Source: a virus (taxonomy: Duplodnaviria; Heunggongvirae; Uroviricota; Caudoviricetes). Taken from it: DNA of 46,841 nt. Of the stretch, positions 5,442-41,828 are shown piece after piece (positions within the stretch are counted from its first letter, which is position 1; the number at the start of each line of letters is the position of its first letter). Position numbers and translations under genes: made by a program. The stretch lies in IMG/VR virus record IMGVR_UViG_2648501797_000005, positions 1-46,841 of that record. One strand, given 5' to 3'. The notes under the pieces were generated by a model. It ran no database searches, was not told where the DNA came from, and worked only from the letters and a program-made list of their open reading frames with translations.

Positions 5442-5708
5442 ATGAATAATGCTTCTATTGCTATTTTAAAAATACTTTTAGGAACGCTATCTACTTTATT
5501 AATACTCCTTTCTTGCGCCTTGCTTACTATTTTATTTGGATTTCTTTTTCAGCAAGGAATGCCGCCAATAGATATGATAAAAATGTCATCCATTTTGTTT
5601 TTATCAATAGTTGTGCTGCATATAATTTGTCAGTGCGTTAAATCTCATTTGTATATAACAATAGATAATCGAGATAAAAACCTAGTCAAATATCTCAACC
5701 GTGACTGA
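5442..5708 (+). CDS. small two-TM membrane protein encoded on the opposite strand in an AT-rich island
   Basis: ORF in strongly AT-rich DNA; GGTGA before ATG 5442 (ORF opens at 5430); two hydrophobic segments; 27-nt convergent overlap with the 5682..6386 gene. Confidence 0.4.
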   Translation: MNNASIAILKILLGTLSTLLILLSCALLTILFGFLFQQGMPPIDMIKMSSILFLSIVVLHIICQCVKSHLYITIDNRDKNLVKYLNRD

Positions 5709-34791: not shown

Positions 34792-35508
<717 letters not shown>

Positions 35509-35741: not shown

Positions 35742-35933
35742 GCGCTATGAGATCAGGCATCCTCGTTACTTTGTCATGTGTGACAGCCTGGTATGCACTC
35801 TGCGAGCTTTGATGTGGTTTACCACTTTAATAGTCACCGTATCACTAAACTGATTAGCTTTACTCATACTCTTGTGGATTCGCTATTTCTGATGTCAATG
35901 CAAAAAAATACTAAGGAAACAAAAAGGATACTT

Positions 35934-36200
35934 ATGTCAGATAACACTATTAAAATCATACCTCAGCACATGACCGCCACATCAGTTCTTATTACGCCTG
36001 ATCGTGCTGAAACAATCATTACTTTTTACCGCCATGAATTTGAGCATCACATGCAGCCTGATGAGCAAGGAAAGAATAGCTTCCAAGTAAAAGTTGAGTT
36101 GACCCCTAACATGTCAGTCTCAATGAGCCCGGATCAAGCTGTTGCATTAGTAAAATCATTACAGGTAGCTCTCAGGGATAATGGGCTATGGAAAGACTGA
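35934..36200 (+). CDS. hypothetical soluble protein (88 aa) in the rex slot
   Basis: AGGA Shine-Dalgarno before ATG 35934 (track ORF opens at 35793); stop overlaps the next gene start. Confidence 0.45.
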   Translation: MSDNTIKIIPQHMTATSVLITPDRAETIITFYRHEFEHHMQPDEQGKNSFQVKVELTPNMSVSMSPDQAVALVKSLQVALRDNGLWKD

Positions 36201-36838
36201 AGCCAGTTTCTTCAGTTCAACCTACCTCAGGAACAACATCATCAGTTCTTCCAAGTATTATAGTTAGTGCAACCCTAGCAGCGACAACCGTTTCTCCTTA
36301 TGGGGATCCATCTCAGTACCAAAGTATTGGTATTGATGCTAAGGTATCAAATAGAGTTTCATACGCCATGGACGAAACGGGTTTGCGCCCAAGTAAGGAA
36401 GATGTAGCGATGAAGAGTGATACCCTGGAGGTAAGCGTGAGCGGAATGTCCAGAGAAGAACTTGACGCAAAGCTTTCACAAAACAAATCAGAGGTAGAGT
36501 CTATTGCTGCGGAAATGCGTCGCGAATCAGCTGACTTTAAAACCTATTATACTCAGCAATTTTCTTCTATTGAGAGAGGTATTGCTGAAATTAAAGGTGA
36601 AATCGGCGGTTTGAAAACGGGACTTACAACGACTCAGTGGGCGATGGCCGTTGGCTTGACTTTAGTTACTGTGATTCTGTCTGGCGTGATGTTAGCCTCA
36701 AGTTGGATTATCTCCGGCAATGACAAGTCACCATCAGTAACCAGCCCGGCTCCAATTATAATACAGGTACCGACACAGCAACCATTAACGAGCGCTCCAA
36801 CTAACCAATCGTCATCACAACAAGCTCCTAAGCAATAA
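36188..36838 (+). CDS. bitopic membrane protein (216 aa): coiled coil, single TM, Pro/Ser/Thr/Gln-rich tail
   Basis: Start overlaps upstream stop; TM WAMAVGLTLVTVILSGVMLASSWII; same strand and presumably same transcript as cI. Confidence 0.55.
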   Translation: MERLKPVSSVQPTSGTTSSVLPSIIVSATLAATTVSPYGDPSQYQSIGIDAKVSNRVSYAMDETGLRPSKEDVAMKSDTLEVSVSGMSREELDAKLSQNKSEVESIAAEMRRESADFKTYYTQQFSSIERGIAEIKGEIGGLKTGLTTTQWAMAVGLTLVTVILSGVMLASSWIISGNDKSPSVTSPAPIIIQVPTQQPLTSAPTNQSSSQQAPKQ

Positions 36839-37331: not shown

Positions 37332-37715
37332 ATGACACGCAGAACTCAGTTCAAAGGCAATTCACGTTCTCGTCGTCGTGAGCGTTTAAAGGCAAAGGCA
37401 TTAGCTAACGGCGTACTGGCCCGCGAAGAAGCAATAAGTTCAGAAGTATTACACCGCCCTACTCTAAGCAGAGCGCAGATTCAGGCTAAAGGTACTCACG
37501 AAACGCCTGAGCGCATAGAAGACGCTAAGCCAATTAAGTTCATGGCACAGGACGTGATCTGGCAACAGAAAGAATACAGACGCAATCTGGAGAGAGCGGC
37601 CATTGTGTACGCGAATGAGTTTGGGCATAGGCAACCAGAAACTGGTGTATGTCTTCCAAATGTAGCTCTTTACGCGGCAGGCTACAGGAAATCAAAACAA
37701 CTGACAGCAAGGTGA
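37332..37715 (+). CDS. N-family antiterminator (P22 gene 24-like, not lambda N)
   Basis: First gene after pL; Arg-rich N-terminus (RRTQFKGNSRSRRRERLKAK); C-terminus VALYAAGYRKSKQLTAR resembles P22 gp24. Confidence 0.7.
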   Translation: MTRRTQFKGNSRSRRRERLKAKALANGVLAREEAISSEVLHRPTLSRAQIQAKGTHETPERIEDAKPIKFMAQDVIWQQKEYRRNLERAAIVYANEFGHRQPETGVCLPNVALYAAGYRKSKQLTAR

Positions 37716-37843
37716 CTTGTGTTGGTCGCCAGAAAATGAAATTAGGCAGCAAACCACTTATTTGAGGTGATATATGGAAGAAGAATTTGAAGAGTTCGAA
37801 GAGCATCCGCAGGATGTGATGGAACAATACCATGATTATCCGT

Positions 37844-38044
37844 ATGACTACGACTATTGATAAGAATCAATGGTGTGGACAATTCAAGCGATGCAATGGA
37901 TGCAAGCTGCAATCGGAATGCATGGTTAAGCCTGAAGAAATGTTTCCTGTAATGGAGAATGGGAAATATGTCGATAAATGGGCAATACGAACGACGGCAA
38001 TGATTGCCAGAGAACTTGGTAAACAGAATAACAAGGCTGCCTGA
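37844..38044 (+). CDS. ral: Ral restriction-alleviation protein
   Basis: MTTTIDKNQWCGQFKRCNGCKLQSECMVKPEEMFPVME... matches lambda Ral as recalled. Confidence 0.85.
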   Translation: MTTTIDKNQWCGQFKRCNGCKLQSECMVKPEEMFPVMENGKYVDKWAIRTTAMIARELGKQNNKAA

Positions 38045-38180
38045 TGGTGGCCTTTATTTTTGGCATAAACAACAGAATAAACACAGCACTGTGTATTCAT
38101 TCCAATGAGTGAATACACGGAGCAATGTCGCTCGTAACTAAACAGGAGCCGACTTGTTCTGATTATTGGAAATCTTCTTT

Positions 38181-38206
38181 GCCCTCCAGTGTGAGGGCAT
38201 TTTTTT
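38181..38206 (+). terminator. intrinsic terminator-like hairpin within the pL operon
   Basis: GCCCTC-cagtgt-GAGGGC followed by ATTTTTTTG. Confidence 0.4.
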
Positions 38207-38218
38207 GATGGAGGATAT

Positions 38219-39187
38219 ATGAGTGAAGTAACAGATTTAGTTGTTATTGAAAAAGCAAATGCAATGACTGTATTTCAGTCTGCCGACCAGATTGAAGAAA
38301 TCCTTCAAAGGGTTGAACGTGAAGTTATGTCCTTTGTGCCTGATATCACAACGGCAAAGGGCAGAAAGGAGATCGCTTCTCTGGCGTATAAAGTTGCGCA
38401 GACGAAAACATATCTCGATGGTCTTGGCAAAGACCTTGTTGCTGAACTGAAGGAAATTCCAAAGCTAATTGATGCCAACCGCAAGACAGTGCGTGATCGC
38501 CTTGATGAGCTGAAAGCCAAGGCGCGCCAGCCTCTTACTGATTATGAGGAGGAACAGGCACGGATTAAAGCCGAAGAAGAAGCTAAGGCAGCAGCTGAAG
38601 CTCTCGCAAAGCAAATTGAGTCTGACCATGAAATAGCGATTTTGATGGATCGCGAATTTGACCGCCAAAGAGAAGAGGCAAGACTCAAAGCGGAGCGGGA
38701 AAAGCGAGAGCATGAAGAACGCTTAAAAAGAGAAGCTGAAGAGAAAGCCAGAGCAGAAGCCGAAGCAAAGGCAAAAGCCGAAATTGAAGCAGCAGCAAGG
38801 CGAGAAGCAGAAGCTAAGGCCGCAGCGGAACGTGCAGAGCGTGAACGCATTGAAGCCGAGCAACGAGCACTGCGCGAAGCAAAAGAGGCAGCAGAACGAG
38901 CTGAAAGAGAAAAGCAGGCTGCAATTGAAGCAGAACGCAGAAAAGCACAGGAGGAGGCTGAACGAATCCGGCGCGAGGCTGAAGCAAAAGAGCAAGCCAG
39001 AATAGCAGAAGAAAAAAGAATCAAGGAAGAAGAAGAGCGTAGAGCAAAGGATAAAGCTCACCGGAAAGAAGTAAATAACAAAATACTTGCTGACCTTATC
39101 AAGGTTGGCGCATCAGAAGATGTTGCTAAAAATATCATAACAGCCATCGTAAAAGGCGAAGTATTCGCAACAAAAATAACCTACTAA
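38219..39187 (+). CDS. hypothetical protein (322 aa) with long Glu/Arg/Lys/Ala-rich coiled coil
   Basis: GGAGG Shine-Dalgarno; globular N- and C-terminal segments around a roughly 180-aa charged repeat region. Confidence 0.5.
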   Translation: MSEVTDLVVIEKANAMTVFQSADQIEEILQRVEREVMSFVPDITTAKGRKEIASLAYKVAQTKTYLDGLGKDLVAELKEIPKLIDANRKTVRDRLDELKAKARQPLTDYEEEQARIKAEEEAKAAAEALAKQIESDHEIAILMDREFDRQREEARLKAEREKREHEERLKREAEEKARAEAEAKAKAEIEAAARREAEAKAAAERAERERIEAEQRALREAKEAAERAEREKQAAIEAERRKAQEEAERIRREAEAKEQARIAEEKRIKEEEERRAKDKAHRKEVNNKILADLIKVGASEDVAKNIITAIVKGEVFATKITY

Positions 39188-39211: not shown

Positions 39212-39343
39212 ATGATTTACGCAATCGCGGGAGGCGCTCGCATGGGTGCCTTCCAATTAAATGAATCTTTACTTGAACGAATCACCCGTAAATTACGTGA
39301 CGGATGGAAAAGAGTTGAGGTCTTATTATGCGCAATGAAATAG
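39212..39343 (+). CDS. cIII: CIII (FtsH inhibitor)
   Basis: MIYAIAGG...ESLLERITRKLRDGWKR central helix matches lambda CIII. Confidence 0.7.
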   Translation: MIYAIAGGARMGAFQLNESLLERITRKLRDGWKRVEVLLCAMK

Positions 39344-39480
39344 CCATCAATCACCAGATGCTTCGTGCAGCACAAAATAAAGCAGTAATAGCCAGATTTA
39401 TTGGTGATTCCAAAATGTGGCTTGAAGCAAATAAAGCGATGAAATCAGCTATCAACCTTCCGTGGTATCGCAGGAAATGA
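39328..39480 (+). CDS. Kil-like small protein (50 aa)
   Basis: Overlaps the cIII 3' end as lambda kil does; ARFIGDSKM resembles my recollection of lambda Kil. Confidence 0.4.
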   Translation: MRNEIAINHQMLRAAQNKAVIARFIGDSKMWLEANKAMKSAINLPWYRRK

Positions 39481-39555
39481 GTTTTACAGATAACTGGTCA
39501 GACGAAGAATTCATTCGTCAGATGAAAGAATTAATCGGTAACGAAGGAGATATTC

Positions 39556-39726
39556 ATGTCACTTGCAACCACAGTGAAGGAGAGCAAGTTACAGAGACGC
39601 ATGTACACGCAGAAAGCTCTCTGGTATCGCCATAATGGCGACCGCGAAGGAATGCGGGTATGCCTTAATTTGTCCCGAGTCGAAGTATTAAATCAGCGTT
39701 ATTTCCTTGGGCCGTGTCCATTCTGA
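39556..39726 (+). CDS. hypothetical small protein (56 aa)
   Basis: Strong AAGGAGAT Shine-Dalgarno; ends 8 nt before the annealing-protein gene. Confidence 0.35.
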   Translation: MSLATTVKESKLQRRMYTQKALWYRHNGDREGMRVCLNLSRVEVLNQRYFLGPCPF

Positions 39727-39734
39727 GGTGAATT

Positions 39735-40442
39735 ATGGATTTGAATAAATTCGATGAGCCATTCAGCCCTGAAGATATCGAATGGCGAATACAGCAAAGC
39801 GGTAAAACACGCGATGGCAAAGTGTGGGCTATGGTGCTGGCTTATGTCACGAACCGGGCAATCATGAAACGCCTGGACGATGTTTGCGGCAAAGCAGGAT
39901 GGCGCAATGAATACCGCGATATTCCCAACAACGGCGGCGTTGAATGCGGCATATCAATAAAGATTGATTCCGAATGGGTAACCAAATGGGATGCTGCTGA
40001 AAACACGCAGGTAGAAGCCGTCAAAGGTGGTCGTTCCGGTGCAATGAAGCGCGCTGCCGTTCAGTGGGGAATCGGTCGGTATCTGTATAACCTTGAGGAA
40101 GGTTTCGCACAAACATCTCTCGATAAAAAGCAGGGATGGCACAGGGCAAAACTCAAGGATGGAACAGGATTTTACTGGCTCCCTCCATCGCTGCCGGGAT
40201 GGGCAATACCAGCATCAGATAACAAACCATCACCAGAAAATACCAACCAGAAATCTCCATCGGTTGACTGCGAACAAATCCTGAAAGACTTCAGCGATTA
40301 TGTGTCAACAGAAACTGACAAGAAAAAACTCATCGAGCGTTATCAGCGTGACTGGCAATTAATGGCTGGCAACGAGGAGGCGCAGGCTAAATGCGTTCAG
40401 GTAATGAACATCAGAGTTAACGAACTAAAACAGGCGGCATAA
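39735..40442 (+). CDS. single-strand annealing protein, Rad52-like (Sak-type)
   Basis: EDIEWR...GWRNEY...KRAAVQWGIGRYLYNLEE pattern resembles Rad52-family phage proteins; occupies the bet position. Confidence 0.55.
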   Translation: MDLNKFDEPFSPEDIEWRIQQSGKTRDGKVWAMVLAYVTNRAIMKRLDDVCGKAGWRNEYRDIPNNGGVECGISIKIDSEWVTKWDAAENTQVEAVKGGRSGAMKRAAVQWGIGRYLYNLEEGFAQTSLDKKQGWHRAKLKDGTGFYWLPPSLPGWAIPASDNKPSPENTNQKSPSVDCEQILKDFSDYVSTETDKKKLIERYQRDWQLMAGNEEAQAKCVQVMNIRVNELKQAA

Positions 40443-40958
40443 ATGGCAAGCAGAGGCGTAAATAAGGTGATCATTATTGGTCGCCTTGGGCATGATCCAG
40501 AAATCAGATATTCACCATCAGGAACGGCATTTGCAAACCTTACAGTTGCTACGTCAGAACAATGGCGTGATAAGCAAACTGGAGAGCAAAAGGAGCAGAC
40601 GGAGTGGCACCGCGTGGTAATGAGCGGAAAACTGGCAGAAATTGCCAGCGAATATCTGCGAAAAGGCTCTGAGGTTTATCTTGAAGGAAAATTGCGGACA
40701 AGAAAATGGCAGGATCAAAGCGGACAGGATCGGTTCACTACCGAAGTCATCGTGGGCGTTGGTGGAACCATGCAAATGCTTGGTGGCAAGCAAGGAGGCA
40801 ATGAACAGTCTTCACCTCAGCGAAATGACGGTCAGCAACAAAGACAGCAACCTCAGCAGCAAGGGAATCACAGCGAACCACCTATGGATTTTGACGACGA
40901 TATCCCCTTTGCACCAGTAACTCTCCCTTTCCCTCGTCACGCTATTCACGCAATTTAA
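40443..40958 (+). CDS. ssb: single-stranded DNA-binding protein
   Basis: OB-fold N-terminus, Gly/Gln-rich linker, C-terminal DFDDDIPF tip. Confidence 0.9.
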
Positions 40959-40966
40959 GGACTTAC

Positions 40967-41515
40967 ATGAATCACTTGATGGTTGACCTTGAAACAATGG
41001 GCAACGGGCCATACGCGCCAGTTATTTCTATTGGGGCGGTATTCTTTGACCCGAATACCGGAGAAACAGGAGAAGAGTTCTCGGTAAATATCTCGCTTGA
41101 GTCATCAATGCGATATCGGGCGCGTCCTGACGCTTCAACGATTTTATGGTGGCTGGAACAGAGTGAAGAAGCCAGAAAATCGCTAACCAGCAACACTCAG
41201 GAGCTTTCAACGGCTCTTTCATGGTTATCTGAATTCATCATAAAGAACGCCAACCACAAACTCGTTCAGGTTTGGGGGAATGGAGCATCATTTGACTGCG
41301 TTATTCTCCGCAACAGTTATTCGCTGACAGGGCAGCCAGTTCCGTGGCAGTGGTGGAATGACCGCGACGTAAGAACAATCGTCGAACTTGGGAAGGTAAT
41401 AGGATTCGATCCTAAGCGAGATATGCCATTCAAAGGAACTCGCCACAACGCGCTTGATGATGCCATCCACCAAGCCAAATACGTTTCAGCGATCTGGAAA
41501 AAGTTAGCTAAATAA
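40967..41515 (+). CDS. 3'-5' exonuclease, DnaQ/DEDDh-like
   Basis: N-terminal MVDLETMG motif and C-terminal H...D motif (HNALDDA). Confidence 0.65.
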   Translation: MNHLMVDLETMGNGPYAPVISIGAVFFDPNTGETGEEFSVNISLESSMRYRARPDASTILWWLEQSEEARKSLTSNTQELSTALSWLSEFIIKNANHKLVQVWGNGASFDCVILRNSYSLTGQPVPWQWWNDRDVRTIVELGKVIGFDPKRDMPFKGTRHNALDDAIHQAKYVSAIWKKLAK

Positions 41516-41531
41516 TCAACAGGAGAAAACC

Positions 41532-41828
41532 ATGCCAGCGCCTCTATATGGTGCGGACGACCCGCGCCGCTGTTCCGGCAATTCCATATCGGAGGTGCTG
41601 GAAAATATCAAGAATAATCTCGACGCGTTTCTTGCTCTGCCACCAGAAACAAAAGAAGAACGGAAGTACCGACGCGATATACAACTCGCAGAAAAACAGG
41701 AAAAAGACCGAATAAACGAAACATCAATCCGACCATTCCGCAAATCCACATATACCCACTTCCCTGAATATATCGACCCGCGCCTGCGTAATTACCGCTC
41801 ACGCTATGGCGCTATCAGTAATGACTGA
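41532..41828 (+). CDS. hypothetical early protein (98 aa)
   Basis: ORF in the co-directional early-left operon. Confidence 0.4.

What the first reader, a model, noticed from the sequence alone, without database searches (positions are those of the whole stretch)
38219..39187. Large charged coiled-coil protein heads the early-left recombination operon
A 322-aa protein with a roughly 180-aa Glu/Arg/Lys/Ala repeat core lies between ral and cIII, where lambda has small ea genes, and precedes a Red-less recombination set. Because Gam is absent, this or a neighbouring small protein may provide RecBCD or other host-nuclease protection. The repetitive coding DNA may also vary in length between isolates.
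Basis: inference. Interest (0 to 1): 0.4.

Follow-up and report, generated by a model that had tools for sequence, protein, structure and literature searches.

The report
Rigid-helix partner of phage recombination genes
The 322-residue protein is real and belongs to a very large, unnamed family of phage early proteins that almost always sit beside, and are sometimes fused to, the phage's own DNA-recombination enzymes; it is not a stand-in for the missing Gam protein, and its long charged helix is fixed in length, not variable.

Summary
The ORF (38219-39187, +, 322 aa) is real and lies between ral and cIII, behind a tL2-like terminator. It is about 99% identical to Sf6 gp33. It is a full-length homologue (51% identity, also 322 aa) of phi80 Agt/Mog, which GenBank annotates as 'anti-toxin for Gam'.

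No Pfam, NCBIfam, PADLOC, PDB-sequence or fold match was found. The usual label 'TolA' is a composition artefact.

The family has at least 5,050 clusters at 50% identity. Its plan is constant: an N-terminal helical domain, a roughly 150-residue E/A/R/K helix, and a 55-residue C-terminal domain.

**New findings**
- In 173 of 180 distinct gene arrangements an annealase of any of four or five families lies within a few genes.
- In five contigs the protein is fused to a YqaJ-type recombination exonuclease.
- Helix length is quantised in alpha-helical turns (period 3.6-3.65 residues), replicated in 45 species. Alanines form a stripe with the same period.

It fails in two places. Abc2, an anti-RecBCD protein, is present at 41532-41828, and relatives co-occur with Gam. 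Gene length is nearly invariant (969 bp).

**Best reading**
A rigid helical adaptor of the phage DNA-end-processing and recombination machinery. Its partner is unknown.

The parts
38180..38206 (+). Intrinsic terminator-like hairpin plus T-run just upstream of the gene (tL2-like). It implies that expression depends on N antitermination.
   Evidence: a 7-bp stem with 5 GC pairs, followed by TTTTTTT; the Sf6 record annotates the equivalent site as 'homology to phage lambda tL2A'.
38210..38215 (+). Shine-Dalgarno sequence GGAGGA, 3 nt before the ATG.
   Evidence: sequence read directly.
38219..39187 (+). Agt/Mog-family gene (322 aa plus stop). PHROG 1376; about 99% identical to Sf6 gp33; 51% identical over its full length to phi80 Agt.
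38219..38572 (+). N-terminal conserved domain (aa 1-118). Two short helices (12-20, 22-37) pack on the start of a long helix. Invariant or near-invariant residues are R49, K63, G70, K71, K78, D85, R88, L95, R103, P105, L106 and E110, mostly spaced 7 apart, so they lie on one helix face.
   Evidence: Alignments. AF2 N-domain model pLDDT 87. 5,050 cluster representatives match at E <= 1e-3.
38573..39019 (+). 149-residue helical linker (aa 119-267). It contains the conserved motif E-x-DHE-x-A-x-L-M-x-x-x-FDR (aa 134-148; predicted helix break at 142-146), then the E/A/R/K helix with an alanine stripe.
   Evidence: 149 residues is the modal family length.
39020..39184 (+). C-terminal conserved domain (aa 268-322). 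Consensus: RE-AD-x-x-H-R-x-x-I-N ... G-x-x-E-E-x-A-K-x-x-x-x-A-I-A-x-G-x-I-x-x-x-x-I-x-Y. It ends exactly at the C-terminus.
   Evidence: The domain ends at the C-terminus in 162 of 166 family members. Weak resemblance to RuvA domain III.
39212..39343 (+). cIII
   Evidence: Pfam Lambda_CIII, E 4e-15.
39328..39480 (+). kil
   Evidence: Pfam Lambda_Kil, E 1.7e-20.
39462..39635 (+). 57-aa ORF in the 'arf' position. It is HK97 gp42-like and overlaps an alternative 56-aa ORF at 39556-39726.
   Evidence: PHROG 2123, E 9e-42. Sf6 annotation.
39735..40442 (+). Rad52/Rad22-type single-strand annealing protein.
   Evidence: Pfam PF04098, E 4.9e-26. PHROG 1097.
40443..40958 (+). Phage SSB.
   Evidence: ORF translation. 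Homologous to the Sf6 gene annotated as SSB.
40967..41515 (+). Rv2179c-like 3'-5' exonuclease.
   Evidence: Pfam PF16473, E 5.8e-73.
41532..41828 (+). Abc2, the P22-type anti-RecBCD (RecBCD-hijacking) protein.
   Evidence: Pfam PF11043, E 1.2e-43. Role as stated in PMC5928155.

Best explanation
The gene encodes a member of a very large, uncurated family of proteobacterial phage early proteins. Its only named member is phi80 Agt/Mog.

The family is an accessory component of phage homologous-recombination modules (exonuclease plus annealase).

**Shown**
- The protein is cytoplasmic and all-helical.
- A conserved N-terminal domain carries a stripe of invariant basic residues.
- A conserved 55-residue C-terminal domain ends at the C-terminus.
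- The two domains are joined by a continuous helix of about 150 residues, roughly 22 nm long. Its length changes only by whole alpha-helical turns.

**Inferred**
- It works as a rigid adaptor or ruler. It holds two binding sites at a fixed distance and angle, or forms a non-heptad, alanine-cored helical bundle.
- It acts on the dsDNA-end-processing step that every module type shares. That step uses the phage's own YqaJ/lambda-Exo-type nuclease where one is present, to which the protein is fused in some phages. In Abc2-type modules such as this window's, the step uses host RecBCD as redirected by Abc2.
- In Gam-bearing phages it tempers or directs Gam.
- It does not depend on a particular annealase, because the same protein cluster is found with Rad52-like/Erf, RecT or Sak4 modules.

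In this window it is made only after N-dependent readthrough of the tL2-like terminator, together with cIII, kil and the recombination genes.
For: **Family and architecture**
- Full-length homology to phi80 Agt: 51% identity, E 6e-64, both 322 aa.
- 5,050 cluster representatives match the N-terminal domain.
- The three-part plan is conserved across 47 diverse members.
- AF2 models are all-helical, with pLDDT 83 and 87.
- There is no transmembrane segment.

**Synteny**
- In 173 of 180 distinct arrangements an annealase lies within -3 to +5 genes. In 160 of 180 it lies at +1 to +3.
- Four or five annealase families are involved, and they mix within single Agt-like clusters.
- The association holds in unrelated phages:
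  - JBD44: Agt-like, Erf, exonuclease
  - Vibrio phage Seahorse: Sak4, SSB, Agt-like
  - Iodobacter phiPLPE: RecE, Bet, Agt-like, RdgC
  - Serratia phage Eta
  - Alcaligenes phage Piluca: Agt-like, Bet, exonuclease

**Fusion**
- Five contigs encode one ORF that combines a YqaJ exonuclease domain (Pfam PF09588, E 1.6e-8) with the Agt-like N domain, helix and C domain.

**Gam**
- When present, Gam is the next gene in 40 of 41 cases.
- The phi80 record calls agt 'anti-toxin for Gam' and gamL 'toxic without Mog'.

**Helix**
- Linker lengths fall on a 3.6-3.65-residue lattice. R = 0.67 for n = 150, with p <= 0.0005 against a jitter null.
- The result was replicated in 45 species: R = 0.86, and R = 0.73 on 16 unique lengths, p <= 0.0002.
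- Alanine positions show the same period.

**Positional analogy**
- In Firmicutes phages, annealase modules are headed by Mu-Gam-like, DUF2483, DUF1351 or Gp157 genes, which the authors propose have analogous functions (PMC8093625).
Against: - No experiment on this protein was found in the literature I could read.
- The basis of the phi80 'antitoxin' label could not be read, because the paper (PMC3510586) is not held.
- Much of the synteny sample is lambdoid. There, any early-left gene lies near the recombination genes, so adjacency alone is weaker than the raw count suggests.
- No binding partner could be predicted, because no multimer modelling was available.
- Fold and sequence searches give no informative relative.
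- Lambda, P22 and HK97 recombine without such a gene, so it is not essential to the reaction.
- A weak partial homologue in Acinetobacter phage WUPSU sits next to tail genes.
- Preservation of helical phase could reflect continuity of an alanine seam in a self-associating bundle. It need not reflect a fixed orientation of the N and C domains.
Confidence: 0.6

Rival explanations
1. It is a dedicated modifier or antitoxin of the phage's RecBCD-directed protein (Gam in phi80-type phages, Abc2 here). It binds that protein and limits its toxicity to the host or times its action.
For: - The phi80 GenBank annotation reads 'anti-toxin for Gam; Mog (modifier of Gam)', and gamL reads 'toxic without Mog'.
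- Gam is the immediately following gene in 40 of 41 loci that have one.
- Abc2 is present in this window.
Against: - 134 of 245 loci with at least 4.5 kb of downstream sequence have neither a recognisable Gam nor Abc2. These include all 68 loci of the Pseudomonas cluster.
- Abc2 lies five or six genes away, not adjacent.
- Lambda Gam is tolerated without any such gene (general knowledge).
- One protein cluster pairs with Gam, with Abc2, or with neither.
- The fusion partner is the exonuclease, not an inhibitor.
Confidence: 0.17
2. It is itself a host-nuclease blocker or DNA-end protector that replaces Gam. This is the first reader's idea, and it parallels the Mu-Gam-like genes that hold this position in Firmicutes phages.
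For: - It is positionally analogous to the Mu Gam-like genes that head annealase modules (PMC8093625).
- Invariant basic residues in the N domain could contact DNA.
- No Gam is present in the window.
Against: - It co-occurs with Gam in 37 of 245 loci and with Abc2 in 74 of 245, so it is not an alternative to them.
- It has no similarity to lambda Gam, Mu Gam/Ku or Gp157.
- The protein is net acidic, with 78 D+E against 71 K+R.
Confidence: 0.08
3. Its role is unrelated to recombination. It could be a host-takeover or anti-defence factor that merely shares the early-left operon. One example is a decoy or sensor-blocker for defence systems that monitor recombination proteins. Another is an envelope or division factor, alongside kil and cIII.
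For: - It is flanked by ral, cIII and kil in this window.
- Databases label it TolA.
- One weak homologue lies beside tail genes.
Against: - It has no transmembrane segment and no TolA domains.
- It gives no PADLOC hit.
- cIII and kil are absent from the Pseudomonas, Vibrio, Iodobacter and Alcaligenes loci, while the annealase or exonuclease remains adjacent.
- The exonuclease fusions argue for a direct link to recombination.
Confidence: 0.1

Closest known systems
phi80 Agt / Mog (PHI80_40, AFV29176.1), 'anti-toxin for Gam'
   Same: - Homologous over the full length: 51% identity, E 6e-64, with the same 322-aa length and the same N domain, helix and C domain.
- It lies in the same early-left operon, upstream of the recombination genes.
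   Different: - In phi80 the next gene is gamL, followed by RecT and Exo.
- Here there is no Gam at all. The module is Rad52-type annealase, SSB, 3'-5' exonuclease and Abc2.
- The experimental basis of the phi80 label could not be checked.
Sf6 gp33, IME10 Orf53, and the mEp043, mEp213 and mEp234 'hypothetical/TolA' genes (PHROG 1376)
   Same: About 99% identical, with the same neighbours.
   Different: Nothing of substance. These are the same gene in other mosaic phages, and all are uncharacterised.
DUF1351 (PF07083) of Firmicutes phages, e.g. MM1p11
   Same: - Similar size (295-364 aa).
- Helical, with a charged central region.
- Immediately adjacent to Erf, RecT or Sak annealases.
   Different: - No detectable sequence relationship. 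There is no Pfam hit in 47 family members, and hhalign probability is 1-5%.
- DUF1351 lacks the conserved C-terminal I-x-Y domain.
TolA (the name given by NCBI and others)
   Same: A long Ala/Glu/Lys-rich helical segment, like TolA domain II.
   Different: - No N-terminal membrane anchor: maximum 19-residue hydropathy is 1.03.
- No TolA C-terminal domain and no Pfam hit of any kind.
- It is a phage early gene. The name is a composition artefact.
ER/K single alpha-helix (SAH) spacers, and non-heptad (hendecad, alanine-core) coiled coils
   Same: - 88% E/A/R/K, 0.59 oppositely charged i/i+3-4 pairs per residue and 7% hydrophobic residues.
- AF2 predicts one continuous helix.
- The periodicity of 3.6-3.65 residues matches an undistorted helix or an 11/3 repeat.
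   Different: - The oligomeric state is unknown.
- An alanine stripe is not typical of SAH domains.
- No solved relative exists.
RuvA domain III (the RuvB-binding domain)
   Same: The C-domain profile picks RuvA domain III as its best natural match in the PDB. The shared pattern is h-x-x-L-h-x-x-G-h-x-x-x-x-A-x-x-h-h-x-x-I (E 0.03-0.09).
   Different: - hhalign probability is only 21%.
- Only two helices align.
- Several of the hits are the same E. coli/Salmonella sequence.
- This is a lead, not a finding.

Membership tests
Agt/Mog family (phi80 PHI80_40; PHROG 1376) | Homology of the N-terminal domain | tested here: met
   PHROG 1376, E 2.4e-109 over the full length. BLASTP against phi80 Agt, E 6e-64.
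Agt/Mog family (phi80 PHI80_40; PHROG 1376) | Colinear three-part architecture: N domain at the N-terminus, long charged helix, C domain ending at the C-terminus | tested here: met
   Alignment of 47 members. The N domain starts within the first 30 aa in 158 of 166 members, and the C domain ends at the C-terminus in 162 of 166.
Agt/Mog family (phi80 PHI80_40; PHROG 1376) | Location in a phage early operon next to recombination genes | tested here: met
   Window gene order. 173 of 180 arrangements have an annealase nearby.
Agt/Mog family (phi80 PHI80_40; PHROG 1376) | Immediately upstream of a gam gene whose toxicity it counteracts | tested here: not met
   No Gam is present in the window. Adjacency to Gam holds only in the subset of relatives that carry Gam. 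Antitoxin activity is not testable with these tools.
TolA | N-terminal transmembrane anchor | tested here: not met
   Maximum 19-residue Kyte-Doolittle mean is 1.03, below the roughly 1.6 threshold.
TolA | TolA C-terminal (domain III) fold | tested here: not met
   No Pfam family at E <= 10 for the whole protein. The C-terminal 52 aa hit only DUF6074, at E 0.18.
DUF1351 (PF07083) | Match to the Pfam model | tested here: not met
   0 of 47 family members match at E <= 0.01.
DUF1351 (PF07083) | Profile-profile similarity to bona fide DUF1351 proteins | tested here: not met
   hhalign probability 0.3-5% against MM1p11 alone and against an alignment of 10 DUF1351 proteins. That alignment is shallow, so very distant homology is not excluded.
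DUF1351 (PF07083) | Adjacent to an annealase gene | tested here: met
   This is positional analogy only.
RecBCD inhibitors and hijackers (lambda Gam PF06064, Mu Gam, P22 Abc2 PF11043) | Sequence homology to any of them | tested here: not met
   No Pfam hits. Abc2 is a separate gene at 41532-41828.
Sipho_Gp157 (PF05565) | Sequence or profile homology | tested here: not met
   hhalign probability below 1% against Gp157-like neighbours. Gp157-like genes co-occur with this family in the same loci.
Classical heptad coiled coil | Hydrophobic a/d positions with 3.5-residue periodicity | tested here: not met
   13.5% hydrophobic residues at a/d in the best register. Length lattice: R(3.5) = 0.49 against R(3.6) = 0.86. 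The alanine periodicity peaks at 3.6-3.65.
ER/K single alpha-helix | High E/R/K content with dense i/i+4 salt-bridge pairs and few hydrophobic residues | tested here: met
ER/K single alpha-helix | Monomeric and stable in solution | not testable with these tools
   This needs CD, SEC-MALS or AUC. The alanine stripe leaves self-association open.
RuvA domain III-like C-terminal domain | Significant profile similarity | tested here: inconclusive
   hmmsearch against PDB sequences, E 0.03-0.09. hhalign probability 21%.

The most novel reading that the evidence does not exclude
The Agt-like family is an unrecognised, widespread extra subunit of the exonuclease-annealase recombination machines of proteobacterial phages. 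It would be a rigid helical ruler of about 22 nm, with length and rotational phase under selection. The ruler would physically couple the end-resecting nuclease (phage Exo, or RecBCD captured by Gam or Abc2) to a second site on DNA or on a host factor, and so set the geometry of end processing. Adding it might improve or alter dsDNA recombineering systems, which currently leave it out.
Probability: 0.3. Interest if true: 0.75.

Novelty: new member of a known kind. Interest (0 to 1): 0.55.

Why it matters
Phage recombination modules (Red, RecET, Erf, Sak, Sak4) are textbook systems and the basis of recombineering. They are usually described as an annealase plus an exonuclease, or SSB, plus an anti-RecBCD protein.

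This family has thousands of sequence clusters and is present in about 10% of complete E. coli genomes. It rides with all of these module types, is fused to the exonuclease in some phages, and has no curated domain model and no described mechanism.

If it is a real component of these modules, three things follow:
- It could explain the reported toxicity of phi80 Gam when expressed alone.
- It would add a testable player to phage end processing and to the interplay with RecBCD.
- It might change how recombineering cassettes are built.

The turn-quantised helix is also a clean natural example of selection on the length and phase of a helical spacer. It can be tested directly with in-phase and out-of-phase indels.

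For annotation, the widespread 'TolA' label should be dropped.

Tried and rejected
**Database searches that gave nothing**
- Pfam, NCBIfam and PADLOC on the whole protein, on its two ends and on 47 relatives.
- PDB sequence search with the N-domain profile: only chance hits.

**Relationships tested and rejected**
- TolA: no membrane anchor and no TolA domain.
- Tandem-repeat array with variable copy number.
- DUF1351: recalled from memory as a possible relative and tested with hhalign, not supported.
- Gp157: not supported.
- RuvA domain III resemblance of the C domain: kept only as a weak lead.

**Literature**
- Searches for phi80 agt/Mog and for Sf6 gp33 found nothing readable. The phi80 genome paper is not held.
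- The HK620 Sak4 paper does not mention the gene.

**Other dead ends**
- P0391, an 804-aa RecE-like protein placed in the same 90% cluster as phi80 Agt, shows no visible Agt-like segment. It was set aside as a clustering oddity.
They were replaced by a degenerate DNA pattern search.
Full report
**The observation**

The window is a mosaic lambdoid phage or prophage, and its + strand corresponds to lambda's leftward strand. It carries:
- lambda-type cI (34795-35508)
- an N gene (37332-37715)
- ral (37832-38044)
- the ORF in question (38219-39187, 322 aa)
- cIII and kil
- a small 'arf-position' ORF
- a Rad52-type annealase, SSB and an Rv2179c-like 3'-5' exonuclease
- Abc2

. The closest phages over this arm are HK106, HK97, IME10 and mEp234.

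The ORF has a strong Shine-Dalgarno sequence. It lies directly behind a hairpin plus T7 terminator, which the Sf6 record annotates as tL2A-like. It should therefore be expressed only after N-mediated antitermination.

The charged core is real. Residues 149-278 are 88% E/A/R/K. The DNA there has an A-over-T skew of up to 0.75. It is not a tandem repeat. No Gam homologue exists in the window.

**Identity**

The protein is about 99% identical to Sf6 gp33, IME10 Orf53 and unnamed genes of mEp043, mEp213 and mEp234. It falls in PHROG 1376, 'unknown function'. At 95% nucleotide identity or more it is present in 527 of 5,426 complete E. coli genomes.

It matches nothing in Pfam, NCBIfam or PADLOC. 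None of 47 diverse relatives has a Pfam hit either. Public records mostly call it 'cell envelope biogenesis protein TolA'. It has no membrane anchor and no TolA domain, so that name reflects composition only.

The one informative relative is phi80 PHI80_40. It is 51% identical over the whole length, E 6e-64, and also 322 aa. GenBank annotates it as 'agt, anti-toxin for Gam; Mog (modifier of Gam)'. The next gene, gamL, is annotated 'toxic without Mog'. I could not read the paper behind that label. From memory, its abstract mentions an E. coli-toxic gene revealed as a gap in the sequencing contig. I give this as recollection only.

**The family**

An exhaustive HMMER search with residues 1-150 found 5,050 cluster representatives (50% identity clusters) at E <= 1e-3, and 3,615 at E <= 1e-10. 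An alignment of 47 diverse members shows a constant plan in four parts.
1. An N-terminal domain of about 118 residues. Invariant or near-invariant residues are R49, K63, G70, K71, K78, D85, R88, L95, R103, P105, L106 and E110. Most are 7 residues apart, so they lie on one helix face, and most are charged.
2. A short conserved motif, E-x-DHE-x-A-x-L-M-x-x-x-FDR.
3. A long E/A/R/K/Q helix.
4. A 55-residue C-terminal domain that ends at the C-terminus with I-x-Y, in 162 of 166 members.

AlphaFold2 predicts an all-helical protein (H12-20, H22-38, H46-141, H147-295, H300-311; pLDDT 83). The N domain modelled alone reaches pLDDT 87.

Fold searches returned only family members or generic helices. The C-domain profile has RuvA domain III as its best natural PDB match (E 0.03-0.09). 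hhalign gives only 21% probability, so I keep this as a lead only.

**Genomic context**

I collected about 310 loci from IMG/VR and GenBank phages. I called co-directional ORFs and classified the neighbours.
- Among 180 distinct arrangements with enough flanking DNA, 173 have a recognisable single-strand annealing protein within -3 to +5 genes. In 160 it lies at +1 to +3.
- The annealases belong to the Rad52-like/Erf (95 arrangements), Bet-like RecT (37), RecT (32) and Sak4 (5) groups, plus one unidentified family (4). Pfam confirmed the Bet-like group as RecT family.
- A single Agt-like cluster (85% identity or more), including the window's own, is found with Rad52-type, RecT or Sak4 modules. 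The protein is therefore not matched to one annealase.
- Where a Gam gene is present (phi80-type, or lambda-type as confirmed by Pfam PF06064), it is the very next gene in 40 of 41 cases.
- Abc2 usually lies at +5 or +6.
- 134 of 245 loci have neither Gam nor Abc2.

Because lambdoid early-left operons always hold recombination genes, I also looked outside them. Adjacency persists in:
- Pseudomonas JBD44: Agt-like, Erf, exonuclease
- Vibrio phage Seahorse: Sak4, SSB, Agt-like
- Iodobacter phiPLPE, a phage outside the lambdoid group: RecE, Bet, Agt-like, RdgC
- Serratia phage Eta
- Alcaligenes phage Piluca: Agt-like, Bet, exonuclease

One weak partial homologue, in Acinetobacter phage WUPSU, lies beside tail genes instead.

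**A fusion**

I searched one genome per species with a degenerate DNA pattern for the motif R-x-P-L-T-[DE]-W-E-x-E-Q. Five contigs, from Methylococcaceae and unclassified proteobacterial MAGs, encode a single ORF of about 510-546 aa. It contains, in order:
- a YqaJ-like recombination exonuclease domain (Pfam PF09588, E 1.6e-8, residues 44-190)
- the Agt-like N domain (about residues 274-373)
- the helix
- the C domain, at the C-terminus

. Such a fusion is classical evidence that the two proteins work together.

**The helix**

I measured the distance between the end of the N-domain profile and the start of the C-domain profile. The values cluster at 120, 127, 131, 138, 142, 145, 149 (the mode, and the window's value), 156, 160, 164, 167, 171 and so on.

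A periodogram over 2.5-12 residues peaks at 3.60-3.65.
- All 150 values: R = 0.67, p <= 0.0005 against a null that jitters each length by plus or minus 5.
- Lengths seen at least twice: R = 0.61.
- Unique lengths: R = 0.34, p = 0.0045 at a fixed period of 3.6.

The genome set (45 species) reproduces this: peak at 3.60, R = 0.86, and R = 0.73 on 16 unique lengths, p <= 0.0002. R at 3.5 is only 0.49. Indels in the linker therefore preserve the alpha-helical phase.

Within the linker, alanine positions have the same 3.6-3.65 periodicity (power 4.1, against a shuffled maximum of 1.2). Strongly hydrophobic residues show almost none. In the window protein alone the alanine signal peaks at 3.65 (41 of 1,000 shuffles reach it).

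Two readings fit:
- a single, rigid ER/K-type helix whose two end domains must keep a fixed relative angle; or
- a non-heptad (11/3-like) bundle with an alanine core, whose seam must stay continuous.

A classical heptad coiled coil does not fit. Either way, the length is constrained rather than free. phi80 Agt and the window protein differ by 24 gap positions in their alignment, yet both are exactly 322 aa.

**What it most likely does**

The shown facts are:
- a conserved two-ended helical architecture
- near-universal linkage to recombination modules of every annealase type
- fusion to the resection exonuclease
- strict adjacency to Gam where Gam exists
- selection on helical length and phase

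From these I infer a rigid adaptor that acts at the step all these modules share, the processing of double-stranded DNA ends. In modules with their own YqaJ/lambda-Exo-type nuclease it would work with that enzyme. In Abc2-type modules such as this one, RecBCD is hijacked rather than blocked (PMC5928155), and there it would work with that captured nuclease. In Gam-type modules it would temper or direct Gam, which would account for the phi80 label.

This fits a published observation for Firmicutes phages. There, annealase modules are headed by one of several unrelated genes (Mu-Gam-like, DUF2483, DUF1351, Gp157), which the authors propose have analogous functions (PMC8093625). I tested whether the present family is a distant DUF1351. 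The two share size, helical character and position, but hhalign gives no support. The family is also unrelated to Gp157, with which it co-occurs.

- The position and the link to recombination hold.
- The specific logic does not hold. Abc2 already supplies the anti-RecBCD function here, and relatives coexist with Gam.
- The expectation of isolate-to-isolate variation in repeat number is contradicted.

**Verdict**

This is a real and common gene, already present in sequence databases but functionally undescribed. This copy is an ordinary member of the Agt/Mog family in a Gam-less, Abc2-type module.

The family-level findings were not found in the literature I could search. They are the universal association with recombination modules, the exonuclease fusion and the turn-quantised helix. 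Together they make the family a good experimental target. Confidence that it is a recombination or DNA-end accessory factor is about 0.6. The partner and the exact mechanism remain inferred.

Noticed in passing
window 35793-36200 and 36188-36838 (+): Two co-directional ORFs (135 and 216 aa; PHROG 26809 and 5820, unknown function) follow lambda-type cI in the position of rexA/rexB. The second has a hydrophobic C-terminal stretch. They may be a prophage-expressed exclusion or defence cassette that replaces Rex.
   Followed up: partly
L328 (- strand ORF at 5652), L335, L376, L380, L384: Single ORFs of about 510-546 aa in Methylococcaceae and other proteobacterial contigs fuse a YqaJ-like exonuclease domain to a complete Agt-like protein.
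   Followed up: yes
L226:5950-7680: A 576-aa ORF joins an Agt-like N domain and helix to the C-terminal part of the protein that is normally encoded by the next gene. That protein is a 405-417-aa coiled-coil family with an RNA-polymerase alpha-CTD-like helix-hairpin-helix (Pfam E 1e-4, below the cut-off). This is a single case and could be a deletion between two charged-helix regions.
   Followed up: partly
L010, L008, L025 and similar loci (gene after RecT): Sipho_Gp157 homologues (Pfam E 3e-42) occur in the same enterobacterial recombination modules as the Agt-like gene. The two are therefore not alternatives to each other in these phages.
   Followed up: partly
window 38542-39024 (-) and 38723-39061 (-): Long antisense ORFs (160 and 112 aa, rich in S/A/L/F/C) lie within the charged-helix coding region. 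They are by-products of the GAA/GCA-rich sense strand and are not credible genes.
   Followed up: no
window 39462-39635 and 39556-39726 (+): Two overlapping small ORFs (57 and 56 aa) lie just upstream of the annealase, in the position of P22 arf. Sf6 annotates both, and PHROG 2123 is labelled 'recombinase' without evident basis.
   Followed up: no
protein P0391 (804 aa): A RecE-like 'exodeoxyribonuclease VIII' is listed in the same 90%-identity cluster as phi80 Agt, although it shows no visible Agt-like segment. This is probably a clustering artefact, but it is odd given the exonuclease fusions found elsewhere.
   Followed up: partly
alignment A1, e.g. JBD44 gp65 (L003:5001-6065), P0184, P0190, P0219, P0249, P0256: A subset of family members carries an extra insert of about 60 residues just after the N domain, with a conserved pattern (...D-E-x-W-x-E-F-x-x-E-A-x-x-A-K...). 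In a few members a second copy lies further along the helix. Its role is unknown.
   Followed up: no
window 40967-41515 (+): The recombination module holds an Rv2179c-like 3'-5' exo(ribo)nuclease, not a 5'-3' YqaJ/lambda-Exo-type enzyme. It is present in only some of the otherwise identical modules.
   Followed up: no
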